From a virus: 17,687 nt of DNA. Positions 9,820-17,082 of this stretch are shown here, piece by piece. The notes below the pieces were generated by a model. It had not been told where the DNA came from, searched no databases, and saw only the letters and a program-made list of their open reading frames with translations. The position numbers and the translations under genes were made by a program. The stretch is taken from UHGV virus genome UHGV-0277874. One strand, given 5' to 3'. The first letter of the stretch is position 1. Every line of letters begins with the position of its first letter.

Positions 9820-10037
9820 CAGAACCTCGCCAGCCGGTACCCGGGATGCCCCCGTCGTCGTGTAATCAGAGCCGCAAGGCGGCGCTCCCACTCCTGCCGT
9901 CCCTGCCGGATCTCAGATAAGTTTTCCATGGTCATCTGCTGACCATTAAAGGTGACGGATTTTCCGTCCAGCACCGCCATTTCAGCTTCCGTATAACGCT
10001 GAATCATGGCTTCGATATCATTCTGGTTCATAACCAT
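9819..10037 (-). CDS. W: Head-tail joining / DNA stabilisation protein (lambda gpW-like)
   Basis: About 70 aa; C-terminal ...RRLAALITRRRGHPGYRLARF resembles lambda gpW ...QTGMTQRRRGPAGFYV. Lies between terminase large subunit and portal, exactly as W in lambda. Start is ATG 10037 or ATG 10031 (the latter overlaps the terminase stop as ATGA). Confidence 0.7.
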   Translation of the reverse strand: MVMNQNDIEAMIQRYTEAEMAVLDGKSVTFNGQQMTMENLSEIRQGRQEWERRLAALITRRRGHPGYRLARF

Positions 10038-12127
10038 CCTCCGGAAGTCAGCCAGGGGTTAACATCGTCAGTTACTGTTTTCTTCCGTTTTTGTTTTTTA
10101 ACAGGCGTGGATACCGGTTCCGGTGAGGGTGACGGTTCGGTACTGTCCGGGACACACTCCAGCCAGGTTTCCCGGCTCGCCCATTCCGGTGCATCCGGCC
10201 AGCGGATCTTTTCGTATCCATGCAGAATGACCAGAGCCTCGGCATACACCATCAGGTCAAAGGCTTCGTTGGCACCGCGACCCGGCTTACTCCATTTCCC
10301 GTCACTGCTCCGCTCTTCATACGTCAGTTCGTCGTAAAACCAGCTCCCCAGCCAGTCAGGGAAATGCACATAGCCGGGACCTGGCGAGTCACGCCATAAC
10401 GCGTTATTCACCCGGTCTTTCAGTGCATCCGTCTGAAGAAGCCAGAGCGGCACATCACCTGCGGCCTGCGCCCGTCGGCCCGTTCGTCCGGTGTTATCAG
10501 GGAATGTACGGGTGATCAGTTTTGCGCGCCGGATGCTGTCGCCCTTAAACAGGTAAATACGTTTACCAAGGCCATCACGACGGCAACGACGCCAGAATTT
10601 ATAGGCATTATCAGTGACCCCGTCTTCACCGCCGGAGTCCACCGCCATTGCCATCAGTCGCATTTGTTGAGAAGGATCGGAGGCCAGCGGCCAGCTTTTA
10701 TGAAAAACATCCGTCAGCAGGACATCCCAGTCTTCCGGATAGCTGGCCGGATCAATTCGCTGGCTCTCCCCGTCGCAGTCACTGCGCAATGACTGCATGA
10801 TATTGTAACGATCAATAATCCAGCGTTCGCCACGACTGCCATAGCCCGTTACCTGAACCACAAAACGGCGATGACGTCCCGCCTGCACATCCACTGTCGC
10901 CACAAGGAAATTAACGCCATCCGGCACACTGCGGGAAGGAACTGGCTCTGCCCGCTGCTCAAGCAGTTCACTTTTTCGTTGCTCCATGCTGGCACGAGGA
11001 AGATAAGGCAATCCCCAGTCGGTGTTGATAACCGCCCTGAGTGTTTCTTCGCTTCCTGTCGCTTCATACTCCTGTTCTGCAGTCAGTAATTTGTAAACCA
11101 GTTGCGCCCAGGTCTGATACGCAGCAGCTGGCCCTTCCATCCAGAAACTGGCGATACGGGAGCGGCGCGGTTCACCGGAAACGTTGCCGTTACGATCAAT
11201 GACCTGACCTTCACGCAACCAGACTCCTGCACTATTGAGCTCACGCTTTTTCTCCGCAGTGATAATGCCGCTGCAGTGCGGGCAAAGTAGATACGCCGCC
11301 TCACTGGCTTTAAAGGGATCCGGTTCATTACGGTAGCCGGTCATGGCATCCATAGCTGGCTGAAAATATTCACCGCAGTGCGGACATGGCCAGTACCAGC
11401 GGCGGCGGTCACCACGATTGTAAAGGGAAAGAATACCAGTCGTCGGTGGCGCTTCATGAGGCGACTTACGTCGCCATTTGCTATCGCAGATGTCACGTCC
11501 CGGCGAGCTCTCCACCAGAGTCATCCCGGCGGACATAAATGTGGTGGTACGTTTTGAGGCCAGGGAGAAACCATCACCCTCGCTGTCGATATTCTCCGGA
11601 AAACGGTCGTAATCGGTTAAGGCGACAAACCGGTAATCCGACGACGACATAATGTTGACCGAGGGCCAACCAATTTTAAGGAACGAGCCATCCCTGAACG
11701 TCTTATAATGGACATTATTGTCGTTACGACGTGGACTCATTCTTTTCTTTACCGCAGCACTGCTTCTGAACGTTCTGTCGAGGCGCTTTTTAGAATGCTC
11801 GCGGGCCTTATCTTCGGTCATCTGCACAACGAGCATGTCCGAAGGATCGCAAACGATGGTATAGACAATCCATCCATCGATCAGACCAATGGTCTTCCCT
11901 GTTCGCGCAGGACCAACAAAAATCACCGCATCGTATTCACGCGATGCCAGGCAGTTCATGGGCTCAATGATGTAGGGTGTCAGTTCAGGATCCCATGGCA
12001 CCGAGTTACCAGCCCCCTTGGGAACACGCATGAATTTTTTAACAGCCTCCGAAATCGGCATGCGACGTGGTGGGGAAAATCCTGCCGATATGTCCCTTCC
12101 CAAATTTCGGGCTGATGAAAAACCCAT
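10028..12127 (-). CDS. Terminase large subunit (GpA-type ATPase/nuclease)
   Basis: 699-aa ORF with ATG 12127 preceded by AGGAGG. Walker A-like motif VGPARTGKT near the N-terminus; size and position immediately downstream of the small subunit; diverged from lambda gpA in sequence. Confidence 0.9.
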   Translation of the reverse strand: MGFSSARNLGRDISAGFSPPRRMPISEAVKKFMRVPKGAGNSVPWDPELTPYIIEPMNCLASREYDAVIFVGPARTGKTIGLIDGWIVYTIVCDPSDMLVVQMTEDKAREHSKKRLDRTFRSSAAVKKRMSPRRNDNNVHYKTFRDGSFLKIGWPSVNIMSSSDYRFVALTDYDRFPENIDSEGDGFSLASKRTTTFMSAGMTLVESSPGRDICDSKWRRKSPHEAPPTTGILSLYNRGDRRRWYWPCPHCGEYFQPAMDAMTGYRNEPDPFKASEAAYLLCPHCSGIITAEKKRELNSAGVWLREGQVIDRNGNVSGEPRRSRIASFWMEGPAAAYQTWAQLVYKLLTAEQEYEATGSEETLRAVINTDWGLPYLPRASMEQRKSELLEQRAEPVPSRSVPDGVNFLVATVDVQAGRHRRFVVQVTGYGSRGERWIIDRYNIMQSLRSDCDGESQRIDPASYPEDWDVLLTDVFHKSWPLASDPSQQMRLMAMAVDSGGEDGVTDNAYKFWRRCRRDGLGKRIYLFKGDSIRRAKLITRTFPDNTGRTGRRAQAAGDVPLWLLQTDALKDRVNNALWRDSPGPGYVHFPDWLGSWFYDELTYEERSSDGKWSKPGRGANEAFDLMVYAEALVILHGYEKIRWPDAPEWASRETWLECVPDSTEPSPSPEPVSTPVKKQKRKKTVTDDVNPWLTSGGWL

Positions 12128-12135
12128 TATTCCTC

Positions 12136-12663
12136 CTAGAGACTCTCTCCTTCCTCATCAGGAATTAATTCAGCAGCACAAGCCTCGTAGGATTTTTCCT
12201 GAAGAGTGTATCGCAGGTCATCAATGGCCTGTTGTACAACGCCGACGGCCTGAGGAGTCAGGGCGCAATCGCGTTCAAGAACATCCGGAATTGTCTCCAG
12301 AACCTGGACGACAGCCTTTCTCATGGACGAATAGACGATGACTACTTCATCAACTGGGATGAGTTTTCGCTGCTCCTTTTCCAGCTTGATCCTTTCATTT
12401 TCAGACTGGTACCAGTCCTTTCTCTCTTTCGGCTCCATACGGGATGGATCATGAACAGAGTCTGCTGCCTCATGCTTCACACTAAACAGGGCGGGCCCGA
12501 CATGCTGCAGGGCGTAAACGGGGTTCCCCCTGACAGTCGCAGCCACAGGAGTGTTGGCCGCGAGGAGCCGTTTTTTTACTGTGTCCCGGTGAAGCCCAAA
12601 GGCCTCGGCGATTTTAAAAACACTCCAGTAATAAGCATCACCGATCCCGCTCACATTTGACAT
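12136..12663 (-). CDS. Terminase small subunit (Nu1-like, N-terminal winged HTH)
   Basis: Track ORF 12136..12675. The ATG at 12663 has GGAG 6 nt upstream. MSNVSGIGDAYYWSVFKIAEAFGLHRDTVKKRLLAANTPVAATVRGNPVYAL (HTH) followed by ...ERKDWYQSENERIKLEKEQRKL, comparable to lambda Nu1 ...IKWYAERDAEIENEKLRREVEEL. Lies immediately upstream of the large subunit, about 185 bp from the candidate cosN. Confidence 0.85.
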   Translation of the reverse strand: MSNVSGIGDAYYWSVFKIAEAFGLHRDTVKKRLLAANTPVAATVRGNPVYALQHVGPALFSVKHEAADSVHDPSRMEPKERKDWYQSENERIKLEKEQRKLIPVDEVVIVYSSMRKAVVQVLETIPDVLERDCALTPQAVGVVQQAIDDLRYTLQEKSYEACAAELIPDEEGESL

Positions 12664-12835
12664 AAGCAACTCCATCTGGCAGGTGAAAATCAGGTTTATT
12701 TATATATTTCAATTAATTGCAAACTGGTCTAATGACAGGAAGAAAAAAATATTGTACAGGTAAAAAGAGAAATAACTTTTAATTATCAATAAATTACCAA
12801 ACATGCTGCCGCCGCCATGGAAATGCAAAAACTAG

Positions 12836-12870
12836 CCTTTTTCCGCGACGCTCCCGCCCCGTGGCAGGGG
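12836..12870 (-). other. Candidate cohesive-end site (cosN-like)
   Basis: Minus-strand sequence ...GCCACG GGGCGGGAGCGT CGCGG AAAAAGG... resembles lambda cosN GTTACG GGGCGGCGACCT CGCGGG TTTTCGC (ACGGGGCGG and CGCGG identical), about 185 bp upstream of the terminase small subunit start, the same spacing as lambda cosN to Nu1. Putative 12-nt cohesive end GGGCGGGAGCGT = plus 12848-12859. It is a GC-rich island in an AT-rich intergenic region. Confidence 0.4.
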
Positions 12871-12888
12871 CCCCCACCGGGAGGACCC

Positions 12889-12912
12889 GACAGCCTGACA
12901 GCCTGACAGCCG
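12889..12912. repeat. Three tandem 8-bp direct repeats GACAGCCT / GACAGCCT / GACAGCCG next to the cosN-like sequence
   Basis: Read directly: ...cccGACAGCCTGACAGCCTGACAGCCGtgac...; function unknown. Confidence 0.6.
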
Positions 12913-13047
12913 TGACGAGCATCTGATACAGCGCTTTACATAATGGCATAGGAATAATTCAGAAGGACATCACAGCATGCCCACACAAATTAGTGTGAGT
13001 GTCCTGTTTCTTCCTACGCACAGGACTGACGAGCATGAGGGGAAAAT

Positions 13048-13215
13048 ATGCGAACCATAAATGCCTCATCTTCAGCAATGCAGCCGGCATCCGAACAGGA
13101 CGATATTGTAAATTCACCTAATTACGAGGACATTGCAGTAGTTGAATTGCAGCTCTGTATTAGCCTGACAGTGACAGAATGCGATATTGACTCTGTCACA
13201 GGTGAAATAGTTTGA
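13048..13215 (+). CDS. Hypothetical small protein (55 aa), speculative
   Basis: ATG at 13048 preceded by GAGGGG (6-7 nt spacer); translation MRTINASSSAMQPASEQDDIVNSPNYEDIAVVELQLCISLTVTECDIDSVTGEIV. Below the track size cut-off; no homology recognised. Confidence 0.3.
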   Translation: MRTINASSSAMQPASEQDDIVNSPNYEDIAVVELQLCISLTVTECDIDSVTGEIV

Positions 13216-13235
13216 ATGATTAGCAGTTATGGTGC

Positions 13236-13442
13236 TCAGTCAACCACCAGGGAATAATCCTTCGAATTCTTATCGTGCTTCACCAACGCTGCCTCAATTG
13301 CCCTGAATGCTTCCAGAGACACCTGATGTTCTATACATGCAATTACAACATCCGGGTAACTCATAGAAATGGTGCTATTAAGCATATTTTTTACACGAAT
13401 CAGATCCAACGAGAGTTCATCAGCAGATTGTTCTTTATTCAT
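13236..13442 (-). CDS. Hypothetical small protein (68 aa), moron-region gene of unknown function
   Basis: [71 protein letters not shown] with ATG start at 13442; AT-rich codon usage like neighbouring cargo genes; divergent from ydfO-like gene. No confident family assignment. Confidence 0.55.
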
Positions 13443-13742
13443 TTTGTCGCTCCATGCGTTTGCTCGTCATCTAGCGGTTAAAATATTACTTCAAATCTTA
13501 CTGCATAAAAGAGGAAAAGTATGAAAGTTTGAGTACATCGACCTTACATACATCTGTCGGTTGCATATCCCTCCTGGATGCCAGCAAGGCTCAATTTTGT
13601 TACGCAATCAACACTATTCATTAAAAACAGGCTTAATATTTGACATAAATCATCAACAAAACACAAAGAGGTCAGACCAGATTGAAACAATAAACACGAT
13701 AATGCAAACTACGCGCCATCGTATCACATGGAAGGTTTACCA

Positions 13743-14174
13743 ATGGCTCAGGCTGCCATTTTTAAAGAAATATTCGATCAAGTACGTAAAGATTTAAACT
13801 GTGAATTATTTTATTCTGAGCTAAAACGTCACAATATCTCACTTTATATTTACTATTTAGCCACAGATAATATTCACATTGTGTTAGAAAACGACAACAT
13901 AGTGTTAGTAAAAGGACTCAAAAAGGTTGTAAATGTTAAATTCTCCAGAAACAAACATCTTATAGAGACCTCCTATAATAAGTTGAAATCAAAAGAAATC
14001 ACATTTCAACAATACAGGGAAAATCTTGCTAAAGCAGGAGTTTTCCGATGGGTTACAAATATCCAGGAACACCAAAGATATTACTATGCCTTTGATAACT
14101 CATTACTATTTACTGAAAGCATCCAGAAAATTACTGAAAGCATCCAGAAAACTACACAGATCTTACCACGCTAA
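13743..14174 (+). CDS. ydfO: YdfO/YbcV-family protein (DUF-type, prophage cargo gene)
   Basis: Track ORF 13728..14174. The ATG at 13743 has GGAAGG about 10 nt upstream. [52 protein letters not shown]...[37 protein letters not shown]... matches my recollection of K-12 Qin YdfO; gene order ydfO-gnsB-cspI as in Qin. Confidence 0.8.
14110..14151 (+). repeat. Perfect 21-bp tandem duplication (ttactgaaagcatccagaaaa x2) inside the 3' end of the ydfO-like gene
   Basis: Read directly; in frame, giving [14 protein letters not shown] in the protein. Confidence 0.9.
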
Positions 14175-14277
14175 ACCATAACGTCCGGCTTCTCTCACTC
14201 CTGAGCCGGACTGCATTGGTTTAATAAAAACCATCAACAATTGTGATTTAGATATTCGGAACCATTCAAATATAACA

Positions 14278-14299
14278 AAACCCCGTAAAAACGAGGTTT
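14278..14299. terminator. Candidate bidirectional rho-independent terminator between convergent ydfO-like and gnsB-like genes
   Basis: Inverted repeat aaaccccg-taaaaa-cgaggttt (8-bp stem with one G-U pair on the minus-strand RNA, 6-nt loop) followed by a U-rich tract on the minus strand; 27 nt downstream of the gnsB-like stop. Confidence 0.4.
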
Positions 14300-14325
14300 A
14301 TGGATAAATTTTATTATTGAATACA

Positions 14326-14499
14326 TCAGATTAAATTAATCTTGACATCATAGCTTTCAAGACCCGTCATTTTTTCCCGTGCGGTAAACTGAATACTGGT
14401 AACTTCTTTCCCGGTCTTTTTCTTAAGTTCAATAATTTTTTTTGTTATATATTCAGAAATATCTGCTTCTGCTTTTGTTTTTAAGTCTTCAATATTCAT
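14326..14499 (-). CDS. gnsB: GnsA/GnsB-family small protein (57 aa)
   Basis: Not in the track (under 60 aa). ATG at 14499 with GAGGA upstream; translation MNIEDLKTKAEADISEYITKKIIELKKKTGKEVTSIQFTAREKMTGLESYDVKINLI, with the conserved FTAREKMTGLESYDVKI block of the Gns family as recalled; TGA stop at 14328-14326. Confidence 0.9.
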   Translation of the reverse strand: MNIEDLKTKAEADISEYITKKIIELKKKTGKEVTSIQFTAREKMTGLESYDVKINLI

Positions 14500-14670
14500 C
14501 ATTTCCTCTTTTAGTCTGTTATGACTTTCCAGTTACACAGTAAGTCGATTATATGGTGCAAACGTGTAAAAGATAAGATGAAACATCGCAATAATCAACA
14601 TACGATAGTCTAAATTTTACACAAACAGACAAAGAGAATTTTCCTGAATTATCAATGCAATAGCATCAAA

Positions 14671-14901
14671 TCAACTCAAGAGCCTTATTGCTGCTTCCAG
14701 AATTTCTTCTGAAGTAACATGTCGATCCGCGGCTACATAAATGACTTTATGATCTCCGGTCAGAGATGGAAACCCTGCGGCCATTACAGTAAGGTGTGTT
14801 TTTTCGCCATTTGGATATTCACGCATGATGGTGTTAACTCCAGTCATCGCTGGCACTACCACTGCTGGTTCAGAGTTAAAAAAAACTATGATTTTTTTCA
14901 T
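14671..14901 (-). CDS. Hypothetical protein (about 76 aa from the MKK start; 90 aa if from ATG 14943)
   Basis: ORF ...MKKIIVFFNSEPAVVVPAMTGVNTIMREYPNGEKTHLTVMAAGFPSLTGDHKVIYVAADRHVTSEEILEAAIRLLS; globular-looking composition unlike the overlapping plus-strand ORF 14719..14985 (W/H/C-rich, judged spurious). Between gnsB-like and cspI-like genes; no family recognised. Confidence 0.5.
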   Translation of the reverse strand: MKKIIVFFNSEPAVVVPAMTGVNTIMREYPNGEKTHLTVMAAGFPSLTGDHKVIYVAADRHVTSEEILEAAIRLLS

Positions 14902-14945
14902 GATGTTACCGTAGTATGTGAGTATCCATCGAATAGACACCAAGC

Positions 14946-14982
14946 AAAAAAGCTCCCGAAGGAGCCTTCATTTTCACTTTTT
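14946..14982. terminator. Possible weak bidirectional terminator hairpin
   Basis: caaaaaa-GCTCC-cgaa-GGAGC-cttcattttcactttttt: 5-bp GC stem with tetraloop, flanked by an A-tract upstream and T-tract downstream; about 200 nt downstream of the cspI-like stop on the minus strand. Confidence 0.3.
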
Positions 14983-15172
14983 TAAATCCAACGACAGACG
15001 GCTGGCATTTAAGTATTGTGAAATATTATCAAATGTAATCATCATTGATTTACAAAAGATACATTTTGCCCCGAAAGGATTCATGTCAGAAACATCAAAA
15101 GATGATGTTCTATACTGGGAACCATGACAACACGGGCATCTAAAGTGAATATGGTTTGTAATATTGTCTACC

Positions 15173-15385
15173 TCAAAGCGCCACTACATGAACAGCGGCA
15201 GGACCTTTAGGTCCGTTCTCAATACCAAATTCAACTTCCTGATTCTCAGTTAATGTTTTGAAATCGTTGCTCTGAATTGCTGAGAAATGGACAAACACAT
15301 CTTTGCTGCCATCTTTCGGCGTGATGAAACCAAAACCTTTTTCAGGGTTAAACCATTTCACTAAACCAGTCATTTTGTTAGACAT
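15173..15385 (-). CDS. cspI: Cold-shock protein, CspA family (CspI-like)
   Basis: 70-aa [73 protein letters not shown] with RNP1-like KGFGFI and RNP2-like VFVHF motifs; matches my recollection of the Qin prophage CspI. About 360 bp of AT-rich upstream sequence is consistent with the long 5' leader typical of csp genes. Confidence 0.95.
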
Positions 15386-15746
15386 AATTATTACCTTTTG
15401 AAGAAATTAGCCCTTGGGCAGAATGGTCCGAAAAAAATATCAGAGAGAAAAACCAACAAGGAAATCTCAAGAGGTACAAATAATAAAATTATAACAATGA
15501 CTGCTTCAGATAAATTTGTAACAAACCAGAACACCATTAACGCATGATTAACCACCCATAGCAAGGATTACTTTTGTAAAGAAAAACACAGCAATGAAAG
15601 AATAGCTTTATTTATTAATAAAACGTGTCATTCTGATTAAGACCTTTTATCTTACCCTTAAGATTTCAGGAATTTTGGCTCATGGAAGAGTCCTTTTTAT
15701 TCAAATTTTACATTCCGCGATGTAAATGTTCCGATTTAATATTACC

Positions 15747-16770
<1,024 letters not shown>

Positions 16771-16774
<4 letters not shown>

Positions 16775-17082
16775 AGATATTTATGATGAGGACGCTCGTG
16801 CTTATTGGCAGGATTTTCAATCTTAAAGGAGTACTGATGCTGCAGATAAGACTCAACTTTTTCTGACAATTTTTCTGCTACTTCCAGGAAGACTTGCCGG
16901 ACGCTCCTTCTGGCTGCTGCCTCATAAAACTCCAGCGCAGCTCCTTCAACACGGTCCATGGCGACATCCAGGTCAAAAATTTCACCGTCAAAGCGTTCTT
17001 TGTCCTGTAAGGCTACAGTTACCGCAACTTTATTCTCAAAATTACGGACTCCTTTCACAACCAGTTCATAGTCTTGAGTCAT
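16771..17082 (-). CDS. ydfR: YdfR-like small protein of unknown function, located inside the lysis cassette
   Basis: 103-aa ORF MTQDYELVVKGVRNFENKVAVTVALQDKERFDGEIFDLDVAMDRVEGAALEFYEAAARRSVRQVFLEVAEK...; AGGAG upstream of the ATG; stop overlaps the endolysin ATG (ATGA). Position between holin and endolysin matches K-12 Qin essQ-ydfR-rrrQ as recalled. Confidence 0.7.

What the first reader, a model, noticed from the sequence alone, without database searches (positions are those of the whole stretch)
12676..15746. AT-rich cargo (moron) island between the lysis cassette and cos
About 3 kb of markedly AT-rich DNA interrupts the GC-richer late operon. It carries stress-associated cargo (CspA-family cold-shock gene, GnsB-like, YdfO-like) in both orientations with their own terminator-like hairpins, plus at least three ORFs I cannot assign (13048-13215, 13236-13442, 14671-14901). 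This is the position where lambdoid phages accumulate host-fitness genes, and the unknown ORFs are the most likely place in this window for an uncharacterised function. I see no signature of a known defence system here, so this is a pointer rather than a claim.
Basis: partly seen in the sequence, partly recalled or inferred. Interest (0 to 1): 0.5.

Follow-up and report, generated by a model that had tools for sequence, protein, structure and literature searches.

The report
Prophage cold-shock gene cassette beside cos
The AT-rich stretch is the already known cold-shock gene cluster of Qin-type lambdoid prophages of E. coli (cspI, ymcF/ynfQ, ynfR, ynfN, gnsB) plus the ybcV/ybcW pair that phage lambda also carries. 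It is ordinary, although YnfN and YbcW still have no known function.

Summary
Window 12676-15746 has 37% G+C against 54% to its left. It lies between the Rz spanin gene and the terminase genes of a lambdoid prophage whose late operon runs on the minus strand.

It is not new. The island is 99.8% identical to many E. coli chromosomes, 98.9% to phage Tritos, and 96.7% (13665-16800) to the K-12 Qin region ydfO-gnsB-ynfN-ynfR-ynfQ-cspI-rzpQ.

The three "unassigned" ORFs resolve as follows:
- **14671-14901** is YnfN.
- **13236-13442** is YbcW, the lambda p79 homologue.
- **13048-13215** is probably not a gene.

cosN lies at 12848-12859, so the last 184 bp of the given interval are beyond cos.

My best reading is a cold-inducible accessory cassette expressed from the prophage. 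It comprises an RNA chaperone (CspI), a zinc-ribbon small protein (YmcF), YnfN, and a membrane-lipid modulator (GnsB).

Modest new points:
- Full-length YnfN is 76 aa, is under purifying selection, has no detectable fold relatives, and is linked to csp/ymcF across Enterobacterales.
- It usually sits behind an internal terminator.
- K-12 ynfN is a frameshifted remnant.

No defence signature was found.

The parts
12848..12859 (-). cosN cohesive-end 12-mer (GGGCGGGAGCGT on the minus strand). The phage genome's left end starts at 12859 and runs down towards terS; its right end stops at 12860.
   Evidence: The linear ends of phage Tritos and of phage cdtI both fall at 12859|12860. The 12-mer resembles the lambda cohesive end GGGCGGCGACCT (recalled from memory).
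12889..12916 (.). 8-bp direct repeat GACAGCCT x3.4, about 30 bp from cosN on the right-end side. Role unknown; possibly a packaging signal.
   Evidence: Tandem Repeats Finder.
13048..13215 (+). 55-codon ORF (phrog_4035 only). Probably non-coding DNA that is conserved with lambda from 13090 onward.
   Evidence: Not called by PGAP. No Pfam or NCBIfam match. Variant sites by codon position are 7/13/7, with 6 synonymous and 21 non-synonymous. Lambda-type copies lack the first 14 codons, carry two indels and have an in-frame stop.
13236..13442 (-). ybcW homologue (lambda p79 family), 68 aa. It is the last gene of the late-operon strand before cos.
   Evidence: Annotated YbcW in phage Tritos. phrog_657, 5e-47. 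91% identical to the lambda copy, with real divergent homologues at 54% and 39%. AF2 gives a helical model with pLDDT 74, and there is no Foldseek PDB match. dN/dS against lambda is 0.61 from only 10 differences, which is inconclusive.
13728..14174 (+). ybcV/ydfO homologue (DUF1398), antisense to the late operon. PGAP starts it at 13743. It carries a 21-bp tandem duplication at 14110-14155.
   Evidence: PF07166, 2.6e-43. PDB 2HH8 'ydfO', 1.2e-66. PGAP annotation. Tandem repeat.
14183..14211 (+). Stable hairpin after ybcV, terminator-like but with a weak U tail.
   Evidence: RNA fold of 14170-14235: -21.9 kcal/mol, z = -5.8.
14268..14299 (-). Intrinsic terminator T2 after gnsB (AAACCUCGUUUUUACGGGGUUU followed by a U-rich tail).
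14326..14502 (-). gnsB (GnsA/GnsB family). PGAP starts it at 14499.
   Evidence: PF08178, 5.4e-35. PDB 4XO2 GnsA, 2.9e-20. PGAP annotation. dN/dS 0.06.
14671..14901 (-). ynfN, full-length 76-aa form.
14906..14971 (-). ynfR, a 21-aa small ORF whose first codons form the 5' arm of terminator T1.
   Evidence: PGAP annotation. The translation is identical to the K-12 YnfR peptide (PMC6001520). Not conserved outside Escherichia.
14946..14968 (-). Intrinsic terminator T1 (AAGGCUCC-UUCG-GGAGCUUU plus a U run). It starts 6 nt after the ymcF stop codon and lies 45 nt upstream of the ynfN ATG.
   Evidence: Fold of -14.9 kcal/mol, z = -2.5. A terminator is found at the equivalent place in 18 of 24 ynfN loci, with different hairpin sequences.
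14974..15162 (-). ymcF/ynfQ, a 62-aa CxxC...CxxC small protein with an ATT start codon.
   Evidence: PF23641 YmcF-like, 6.9e-32. PGAP annotation. Translation. dN/dS 0.12.
15173..15385 (-). cspI, a CspA-family cold-shock protein.
   Evidence: PF00313, 1.6e-31. NCBIfam CspG/CspA models. PGAP 'cspI'. dN/dS 0.04.
15146..15530 (-). cspA-type thermoregulator RNA: a 145-nt 5' leader (15386-15530) plus the coding region.
   Evidence: Rfam RF01766, 114.2 bits (gathering score 78), E = 1e-29. The same model hits the homologous loci L090, L093 and L098.
15536..15564 (-). Putative cspI promoter: -35 TTGCTA (15564-15559), 17-nt spacer, TGc-GTTAAT extended -10 (15544-15536). An AT-rich upstream tract follows.
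   Evidence: Read from the sequence. The predicted start, about 15530, coincides with position 1 of the Rfam model. The resemblance to the cspA promoter is from memory. The consensus scan did not pick it up.

Best explanation
The island is the right-arm accessory region of a Qin-type lambdoid prophage. It has two parts.

**(1) A cold-shock cassette: cspI-ymcF(ynfQ)-[T1/ynfR]-ynfN-gnsB-[T2].**
- It has its own cspA-like promoter and a 145-nt cspA-type thermosensing leader. It can therefore be expressed from the repressed prophage when the temperature drops.
- CspI acts as an RNA chaperone. GnsB shifts membrane lipids towards unsaturated fatty acids.
- YmcF (a zinc-ribbon-like small protein) and YnfN (76 aa, beta-rich) are co-regulated partners whose biochemistry is unknown.
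- ynfN and gnsB lie behind an internal intrinsic terminator that begins 6 nt after the ymcF stop codon. I infer that they are made by read-through. Read-through would be favoured in the cold by a ribosome sitting on the ymcF stop or ynfR start, by the known antiterminator activity of Csp proteins, or by both.

**(2) The divergent ybcV (DUF1398) / ybcW pair next to cos,** which lambda itself carries. Function unknown.

All genes except ybcV point the same way as the late operon. They are therefore also transcribed by Q-modified polymerase on its way across cos to the terminase genes.

**Shown here:** gene identities, the RNA element, the terminators, synteny and purifying selection.
**From the literature on K-12 orthologues:** cold induction and the lipid effect.
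**Inferred:** read-through gating and a benefit to the lysogen.
For: **Identity**
- The island is 99.8% identical to annotated E. coli chromosomes carrying cspI, ymcF, ynfR, ynfN, gnsB and DUF1398.
- It is 96.7% identical to K-12 Qin over 13665-16800.

**Families and RNA element**
- CSD, YmcF-like, GnsAB and DUF1398 all match in Pfam.
- The cspA thermoregulator scores 114 bits.

**Gene packing**
- cspI to ymcF is 10 nt, ymcF to ynfR 2 nt, and ynfR to ynfN 4 nt.

**Terminators**
- T1 and T2 are present.

**The cassette is a conserved unit**
- csp-ymcF-ynfN-gns recurs at about 76% YnfN identity in prophages with different terminases, and in at least 8 Citrobacter species.
- csp-ymcF-ynfN also occurs in non-prophage chromosomal loci of Kosakonia, Phytobacter and Klebsiella.
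- The thermoregulator RNA is present in L090, L093 and L098.

**Purifying selection at pS of about 0.62**
- cspI 0.04, ymcF 0.12, ynfN 0.10, gnsB 0.06.

**Terminator upstream of ynfN**
- One lies 40-86 nt upstream of the ynfN ATG in 18 of 24 loci, with at least 6 unrelated hairpin sequences.

**Literature**
- YnfR-SPA rises strongly after cold shock (PMC6001520).
- cspI, ynfQ and ynfN are co-induced 6.5-, 5.9- and 5.8-fold, with parallel SspA dependence of 38-, 42- and 51-fold (PMC11228462).
- gnsA/gnsB overexpression raises unsaturated fatty acids and rescues growth at low temperature (bioRxiv 10.1101/2024.03.27.586906; PMC10607373).

**Variability of the site**
- Lambda-type relatives carry bor in place of the cassette.
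Against: - No expression data exist for this prophage. Cold induction is borrowed from K-12 orthologues.
- The cspI promoter was read by eye and was not reported by the consensus scan.
- Read-through of T1 is inferred. A terminator in front of a gene is also what two separate transcription units would look like, and 6 of 24 ynfN loci show no such terminator.
- gnsB has a 168-nt upstream spacer with a perfect TATAAT, so it may have its own promoter.
- Benefits of gnsB are known only from overexpression.
- K-12 tolerates a frameshifted ynfN, so YnfN is dispensable at least in the laboratory.
- Nothing tested here says what YnfN, YmcF, YbcV or YbcW do biochemically.
Confidence: 0.7

Rival explanations
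1. The cassette serves the phage rather than the host. It lies inside the late operon and is co-oriented with it, so its proteins are made late in lytic growth. They would help infection at low temperature, through Csp RNA-chaperone and antitermination activity on the roughly 25-kb late transcript and through membrane remodelling before lysis. YbcW, the last gene before cos, would act in packaging.
For: All genes except ybcV are co-oriented with Rz and terS. Q-antiterminated transcription must cross this region to reach the terminase genes (established lambda biology). A YbcW-like gene occupies the same 'last gene before terS' position in a PICI-like element, between gpD-like and Nu1-like genes, and in lambda itself.
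Against: The cassette has its own cold-shock leader and terminators. The same csp-ymcF-ynfN unit sits in non-phage chromosomal loci of Klebsiella, Raoultella and Shimwellia. Lambda lacks the cassette and carries bor at this position instead. YbcW is 91% identical between phages that use unrelated small terminases, DUF1441 here and Nu1 in lambda, so it is not a TerS-specific partner.
Confidence: 0.15
2. GnsB is a toxin and the upstream small protein YnfN is its antitoxin, mirroring the proposed GnsA-YmcE pair. The island would then carry an addiction or abortive-infection module.
For: Pfam and PGAP label the family 'GnsA/GnsB toxin of toxin-antitoxin system'. ynfN sits where ymcE sits in the chromosomal cspG-ymcF-ymcE-gnsA locus. 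ynfN and gnsB co-occur in E. coli and Citrobacter.
Against: ynfN and gnsB are separated by 168 nt rather than overlapping. The DNA comparison found no similarity between the ynfR/ynfN segment and the ymcE segment of the cspG locus. YnfN occurs without any gns gene in 9 of the 24 loci examined, for example L098, L101, L104 and L125. K-12 keeps gnsB with a frameshifted ynfN, which an antitoxin could not tolerate. There are no PADLOC hits. gnsA/gnsB plasmids rescue growth rather than kill.
Confidence: 0.05
3. The island is selectively neutral mosaic baggage. It would be AT-rich, H-NS-silenced DNA that persists because it lies between two essential modules, with no current function for most of its ORFs.
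For: ORF 13048-13215 shows neutral-looking substitution. ybcW has dN/dS 0.61 against lambda. K-12 ynfN is frameshifted. Related phages do without the cassette or without ybcV (HannyBb).
Against: dN/dS is 0.04-0.12 for cspI, ymcF, ynfN and gnsB at near-saturated synonymous divergence. Synteny is kept across genera. The regulatory RNA is intact. Proteins are detected and induced in K-12.
Confidence: 0.1

Closest known systems
Qin cryptic prophage of E. coli K-12, segment ydfO-gnsB-ynfN-ynfR-ynfQ-cspI-rzpQ (b1549-b1553)
   Same: Same genes in the same order and orientation, 96.7% nucleotide identity over window 13665-16800. Same cold-shock leader.
   Different: Here the prophage is intact around it: DUF1441 TerS, TerL and cos, with ybcW instead of K-12's ynfO/nohA. 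ynfN is the full 76-aa form, whereas K-12 has a T8-to-T7 frameshift and a 51-aa annotation. The DUF1398 gene carries a 21-bp duplication.
Chromosomal cspG-ymcF-ymcE-gnsA locus of E. coli K-12
   Same: Same design: cold-shock csp gene, then ymcF-type small protein, then a middle gene, then a gns gene. About 74% DNA identity for the csp+ymcF and gns parts.
   Different: The middle gene is ymcE there and ynfR/ynfN here, with no detectable similarity. Genes overlap there. Here a terminator and a 168-nt spacer separate them.
Right end of phage lambda (bor, lambdap78 = ybcV-like, lambdap79 = ybcW-like, cos)
   Same: 89% DNA identity over window 13090-14134. The same divergent ybcV/ybcW pair sits next to cos. 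The cohesive end is similar. It is the classical site for lysogen-expressed accessory genes.
   Different: Lambda has bor where this phage has the cold-shock cassette. Lambda uses the Nu1 small terminase, whereas this phage uses DUF1441.
cspA mRNA thermosensor (Rfam RF01766)
   Same: The full-length model matches above the gathering score. The leader length of about 145 nt agrees with the reported cspI leader (recalled from memory).
   Different: The 3' terminator part of the model is not matched, because ymcF is inserted between the csp gene and the terminator (alignment).

Membership tests
Lambdoid accessory ('moron') region between lysis genes and cos | Located between Rz/Rz1 and cos, outside the essential modules | tested here: met
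   The Rz stop is at 15747 and cosN at 12848-12859.
Lambdoid accessory ('moron') region between lysis genes and cos | Base composition distinct from neighbouring phage genes | tested here: met
   G+C 0.37 against 0.54.
Lambdoid accessory ('moron') region between lysis genes and cos | Present in some relatives and absent or replaced in others | tested here: met
   48 loci carry the csp cassette and 30 carry bor at the same site. HannyBb lacks ybcV.
Lambdoid accessory ('moron') region between lysis genes and cos | Own promoter and terminator allowing expression from the repressed prophage | tested here: inconclusive
   Terminators T1 and T2 were found. The promoter was read by eye at 15536-15564 and missed by the consensus scan. 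Expression was not measured.
CspA-family cold-shock gene with cspA-type thermoregulator | Cold-shock domain protein of about 70 aa | tested here: met
   PF00313, 1.6e-31; NCBIfam CspG model, 1e-40.
CspA-family cold-shock gene with cspA-type thermoregulator | Long structured 5' leader matching RF01766 above the gathering score | tested here: met
   114.2 bits against 78.
CspA-family cold-shock gene with cspA-type thermoregulator | Induction on temperature downshift | not testable with these tools
   Only literature on K-12 orthologues is available.
GnsA/GnsB family | Match to PF08178 and to the GnsA crystal-structure sequence | tested here: met
   5.4e-35; 4XO2, 2.9e-20.
GnsA/GnsB family | Raises unsaturated fatty acid content when overexpressed | not testable with these tools
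   Reported for K-12 gnsA and gnsB.
YnfN family (no Pfam model) | Full-length alignment to proteins annotated YnfN, with conserved FFN...P-G...SLTGDH...R...EEI core | tested here: met
   PGAP names the identical protein YnfN.
YbcW / lambda p79 family (phrog_657) | Full-length similarity to lambda p79 and DLP12 YbcW, adjacent to DUF1398 and cos | tested here: met
   91% identical to the lambda copy. phrog_657, 5e-47. Synteny.
Type II toxin-antitoxin pair (GnsB toxin + upstream antitoxin) | Tightly coupled two-gene operon whose partner always co-occurs with the toxin | tested here: not met
   There is a 168-nt gap. YnfN occurs without gns in several genera. K-12 has gnsB with a frameshifted ynfN.
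Known anti-phage defence systems | Match to a PADLOC model of a defence protein | tested here: not met
   Only the generic CSD_V model hit CspI, plus two weak hits (E 4e-4 and 7e-3) for DUF1398.

The most novel reading that the evidence does not exclude
YnfN is the founding member of an uncharacterised, Enterobacterales-restricted family of cold-shock effectors with a fold unlike any solved structure. Its synthesis would be gated by a conserved operon-internal terminator placed directly after ymcF. Read-through would be set by the ribosome on the ymcF stop or ynfR start, by Csp antitermination, or by both. That would make a feed-forward switch giving a delayed second wave (YnfN, GnsB) of the cold-shock response.
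Probability: 0.3. Interest if true: 0.45.

Novelty: already known. Interest (0 to 1): 0.22.

Why it matters
As a locus it adds little. It is the intact-phage version of a region long annotated in E. coli K-12 and present at least in part in 3361 of 5426 complete E. coli genomes.

Its value is as a clean reference copy.
- It shows that the ancestral YnfN is 76 aa, and that the K-12 gene used in y-ome and expression studies is truncated.
- It shows that csp-ymcF-(terminator)-ynfN-gns is a mobile unit, under purifying selection, shared by prophages and chromosomes across Enterobacterales.

This gives a concrete and cheap experiment on two y-ome proteins, YnfN and YmcF, and on how temperate phages carry cold-adaptation genes.

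Tried and rejected
- **Defence system.** The PADLOC scan of all island proteins found nothing specific.
- **Structural clues for YbcW.** A moderate model (pLDDT 74, helical) gave only two Foldseek hits, at E = 7.
- **Deep homologues of YbcW.** The exhaustive HMMER search of 1.8 billion representatives returned 165 hits. Nearly all are frameshifted fragments of lambda DNA from roughly 3.5-kb contigs. Only two are real divergent relatives.
- **ORF 13048-13215 as a gene.** Rejected on substitution pattern, indels and an in-frame stop in lambda-type copies, and absence from PGAP. Its PHROG match only shows that phage annotators have called it before.
- **Other RNA families.** None was found in 12400-16300 at E <= 1 besides cspA.
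- **Literature on ynfN, ybcW and DUF1398.** There are no functional studies in the held library.
- **TA-pair reading of YnfN/GnsB.** Rejected; see the rival explanations.


Full report
**What the window is.**
The ORF map and family scans show a lambdoid prophage whose late operon runs on the minus strand:
- endolysin at 16241-16774
- Rz (DUF2514, with an embedded Rz1-type ORF) at 15747-16244
- the flagged island
- a DUF1441 small terminase at 12136-12675
- a GpA-type large terminase at 10028-12127

**Checking the observation.**
- G+C is 0.371 in 12676-15746, against 0.540 to the left and 0.449 to the right. The 500-bp profile reaches 0.32-0.34.
CspI matches PF00313. GnsB matches PF08178 and the GnsA structure 4XO2. 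The YdfO-like gene matches PF07166, and its sequence matches PDB 2HH8 'ydfO' at 1e-66.
- Genes lie on both strands.
- Hairpin terminators are present after gnsB (14299-14268, minus strand) and after ymcF (14968-14946, minus strand). A stable hairpin follows ybcV (14183-14211, plus strand; z = -5.8).

**Where cos is.**
Two independent phage records have their physical ends at window 12859|12860. Phage Tritos ends there, and both Tritos and phage cdtI begin there. The left end reads GGGCGGGAGCGT. This is close to the lambda cohesive end as I recall it (GGGCGGCGACCT). So cosN is at 12848-12859.

**The island is already known.**
- It is 99.8% identical over its whole length to several E. coli chromosomes.
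- 3361 of 5426 complete E. coli genomes have some match, and 440 have at least 80% of it.
- It is 98.9% identical to phage Tritos.
- NCBI's PGAP annotation of an identical copy lists a hypothetical protein (= YbcW in Tritos), DUF1398, gnsB, ynfN, ynfR, ymcF and cspI.
- Window 13665-16800 is 96.7% identical to the K-12 Qin cryptic prophage segment ydfO-gnsB-ynfN-ynfR-ynfQ-cspI-rzpQ-rrrQ.
- Window 13090-14134 is 89% identical to the right end of phage lambda itself, the ybcV-like and ybcW-like ORFs p78 and p79.

**The three 'unassigned' ORFs.**

(a) *14671-14901(-) is ynfN.*
- The 76-aa form is the conserved one. There are 283 homologue clusters, all in Enterobacterales and nearly all of 75-76 aa.
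- dN/dS is 0.10 against a 76%-identical copy at pS 0.63.
- In K-12 a T8 run is T7, so the ATG is out of frame and the annotation starts at Met26. The K-12 protein lacks the first two and a half of the five predicted strands.
- The AlphaFold model is confident (pLDDT 88; strands 2-7, 14-18, 24-28, 34-44 and 52-58; helix 64-75).

(b) *13236-13442(-) is ybcW, the lambda p79 family.*
- It is 91% identical to the lambda protein.
- Only two real divergent relatives exist, at 54% and 39%. Most database 'homologues' are error-ridden lambda DNA in roughly 3.5-kb contigs.
- The model is helical (pLDDT 74) and has no PDB match.
- dN/dS against lambda is 0.61 on ten differences, so constraint is unproven.
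- The 39% relative lies between gpD-like and Nu1-like genes of a PICI-like element, again as the last gene before the small terminase gene.

(c) *13048-13215(+) is probably not a gene.*
- PGAP does not call it.
- Variant sites fall 7/13/7 on codon positions, with 6 synonymous and 21 non-synonymous.
- Lambda-type copies share the DNA only from 13090, so they lose 14 codons. They carry two indels and an in-frame stop.
- Its PHROG match only records earlier automatic calls.

- ymcF/ynfQ at 14974-15162(-), ATT start, PF23641, a CxxC...CxxC protein.
- ynfR at 14906-14971(-), 21 aa.
- A full-length match to the cspA thermoregulator RNA at 15146-15530(-), 114 bits against a gathering score of 78.
- Upstream of model position 1, I read a cspA-like promoter: TTGCTA, 17 nt, then TGcGTTAAT (15564-15536). 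An AT-rich tract lies behind it. The consensus scanner did not report it.

**The anatomy suggests an operon with an internal gate.**
- cspI, ymcF, ynfR and ynfN are separated by 10, 2 and 4 nt. gnsB follows after 168 nt, and then comes terminator T2.
- Terminator T1 (AAGGCUCC-UUCG-GGAGCUUU plus a U run) begins 6 nt after the ymcF stop codon.
- The ynfR ATG and its first codons form the 5' arm of T1. The ynfN ATG is only 45 nt beyond the U run.

**Comparative evidence.**
- At about 76% YnfN identity, the order csp-ymcF-ynfN-gns recurs downstream of the lysis genes in prophages with quite different packaging modules: HNH with Terminase_4/TerL, or GpA. It also recurs in at least eight Citrobacter species.
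- At 46-63% identity, YnfN sits next to csp, ymcF or both in ordinary chromosomal neighbourhoods of Klebsiella, Raoultella, Shimwellia, Kosakonia and Phytobacter. YnfU- or YnaE-type small genes are sometimes adjacent.
- One locus has a second YnfN paralogue at 35% identity on the other side of the csp gene.
- The cspA-type RNA is found in three of these loci.
- A terminator lies 40-86 nt upstream of the ynfN start in 18 of 24 loci, with at least six unrelated hairpin sequences. The feature, not the sequence, is conserved.
- ynfR as an ORF is not conserved outside Escherichia.

**Literature on the K-12 orthologues.**
- YnfR-SPA is barely detectable normally and strongly induced by cold shock (PMC6001520).
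- cspI, ynfQ and ynfN move together: 6.5-, 5.9- and 5.8-fold after AZT, with 38-, 42- and 51-fold SspA dependence (PMC11228462). This fits co-transcription through T1.
- Overexpressed gnsA or gnsB raises unsaturated fatty acids, suppresses fabA6 and secG-null, and rescues low-temperature growth of relA fadR mutants (PMC10607373).
- I found no functional work on ynfN, ybcW or DUF1398.

**Best explanation (confidence 0.7).**
The island is a cold-shock accessory cassette plus the lambda-type ybcV/ybcW pair.
- In the lysogen, the cspA-like promoter and the thermosensing leader give cold-induced CspI and YmcF.
- Transcription that passes T1 adds YnfN and GnsB. Read-through is my inference. It would be favoured by a ribosome occupying the ymcF stop or ynfR start, a few nucleotides from the hairpin. 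It could also be favoured by Csp proteins, which are reported antiterminators (from memory: Bae et al. 2000).
- In lytic growth, Q-modified polymerase reads through everything to reach the terminase genes, so the co-oriented genes are also late genes.

**Rivals.**
A phage-benefit role (0.15), neutral baggage (0.10) and a GnsB/YnfN toxin-antitoxin pair (0.05) are weighed in the rival explanations. The TA reading fails on gene spacing, on co-occurrence and on the K-12 frameshift.

**Verdict.**
Two of the three 'unknown' ORFs are named families of unknown function, and the third is likely spurious.

The modest new points are:
- the full-length YnfN
- its lack of fold relatives
- its conserved linkage to csp/ymcF behind an internal terminator
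- the K-12 frameshift

Noticed in passing
window 14881-14888 (A8 on the plus strand = T8 in ynfN); L084 4105-4185: The K-12 MG1655 ynfN (b1551, annotated 51 aa) is a frameshifted remnant. K-12 has T7 where this window and most relatives have T8, so the conserved 76-aa ORF loses its start (upstream frame reads HEKNHSFFNSEP...). Studies of K-12 'YnfN' look at a protein lacking about half its predicted beta-sheet.
   Followed up: partly
window 14946-14971: The small protein gene ynfR is built from the terminator hairpin after ymcF: its ATG and first codons are the 5' stem. The ORF is not conserved outside Escherichia, although the terminator is. It may be an incidentally translated or regulatory ORF rather than a protein with its own function.
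   Followed up: partly
L110 3001-3207 (Logan SRR12826347) and L111: A 39%-identical YbcW-like gene lies between major-capsid/gpD-like genes and a Nu1-type small terminase gene, in an element that also carries DUF927 and PerC genes (PICI-like). YbcW-type genes may characteristically be the last gene before cos/terS.
   Followed up: no
window 12889-12916: An 8-bp direct repeat GACAGCCT x3.4 lies within a G+C-rich patch about 30 bp from cosN on the right-end side. It is a possible packaging-termination or terminase-binding signal.
   Followed up: no
window 14110-14155: A 21-bp perfect-frame tandem duplication adds seven residues ([14 protein letters not shown]) to the C-terminus of the DUF1398 protein relative to K-12 YdfO.
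   Followed up: no
protein hits P0088-P0180; L112; P0385; P0092: Database contamination. Thousands of 'YbcW homologues' come from roughly 3.5-kb ENA contigs of error-ridden lambda DNA. I suspect a sequencing-control amplicon, but did not check this. This E. coli prophage region also appears in a 'Veillonella parvula' MAG, a 'Leptospira interrogans' partial record and a plant (Dovyalis caffra) assembly.
   Followed up: no
window 13728-14174: The functional labels attached to DUF1398 in public sets, PHROG 413 'head protein' and GenBank 'putative envelope protein', have no support from position, orientation (antisense to the late operon) or any search done here.
   Followed up: no
L090 3037-3279: A distant YnfN paralogue (35% identity, 80 aa) lacks the S-x-T-G-D-H loop. 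It lies upstream of the csp gene in a locus next to icd, so some genomes carry two YnfN-type genes flanking one csp gene.
   Followed up: no
L093 3885-3961: The ymcF 3' end plus terminator in the Citrobacter-type cassette gives a sub-threshold match to the Salmonella sRNA candidate STnc220 (43 bits against a gathering score of 60). That sRNA may be the 3' end of a csp-ymcF transcript.
   Followed up: no
L001 7096-8720 vs window 16771-17082: In strain F8704-2 the DUF1327 (ydfR-like) gene between holin and endolysin is split by an IS3 element. In the window the same gene is intact.
   Followed up: no
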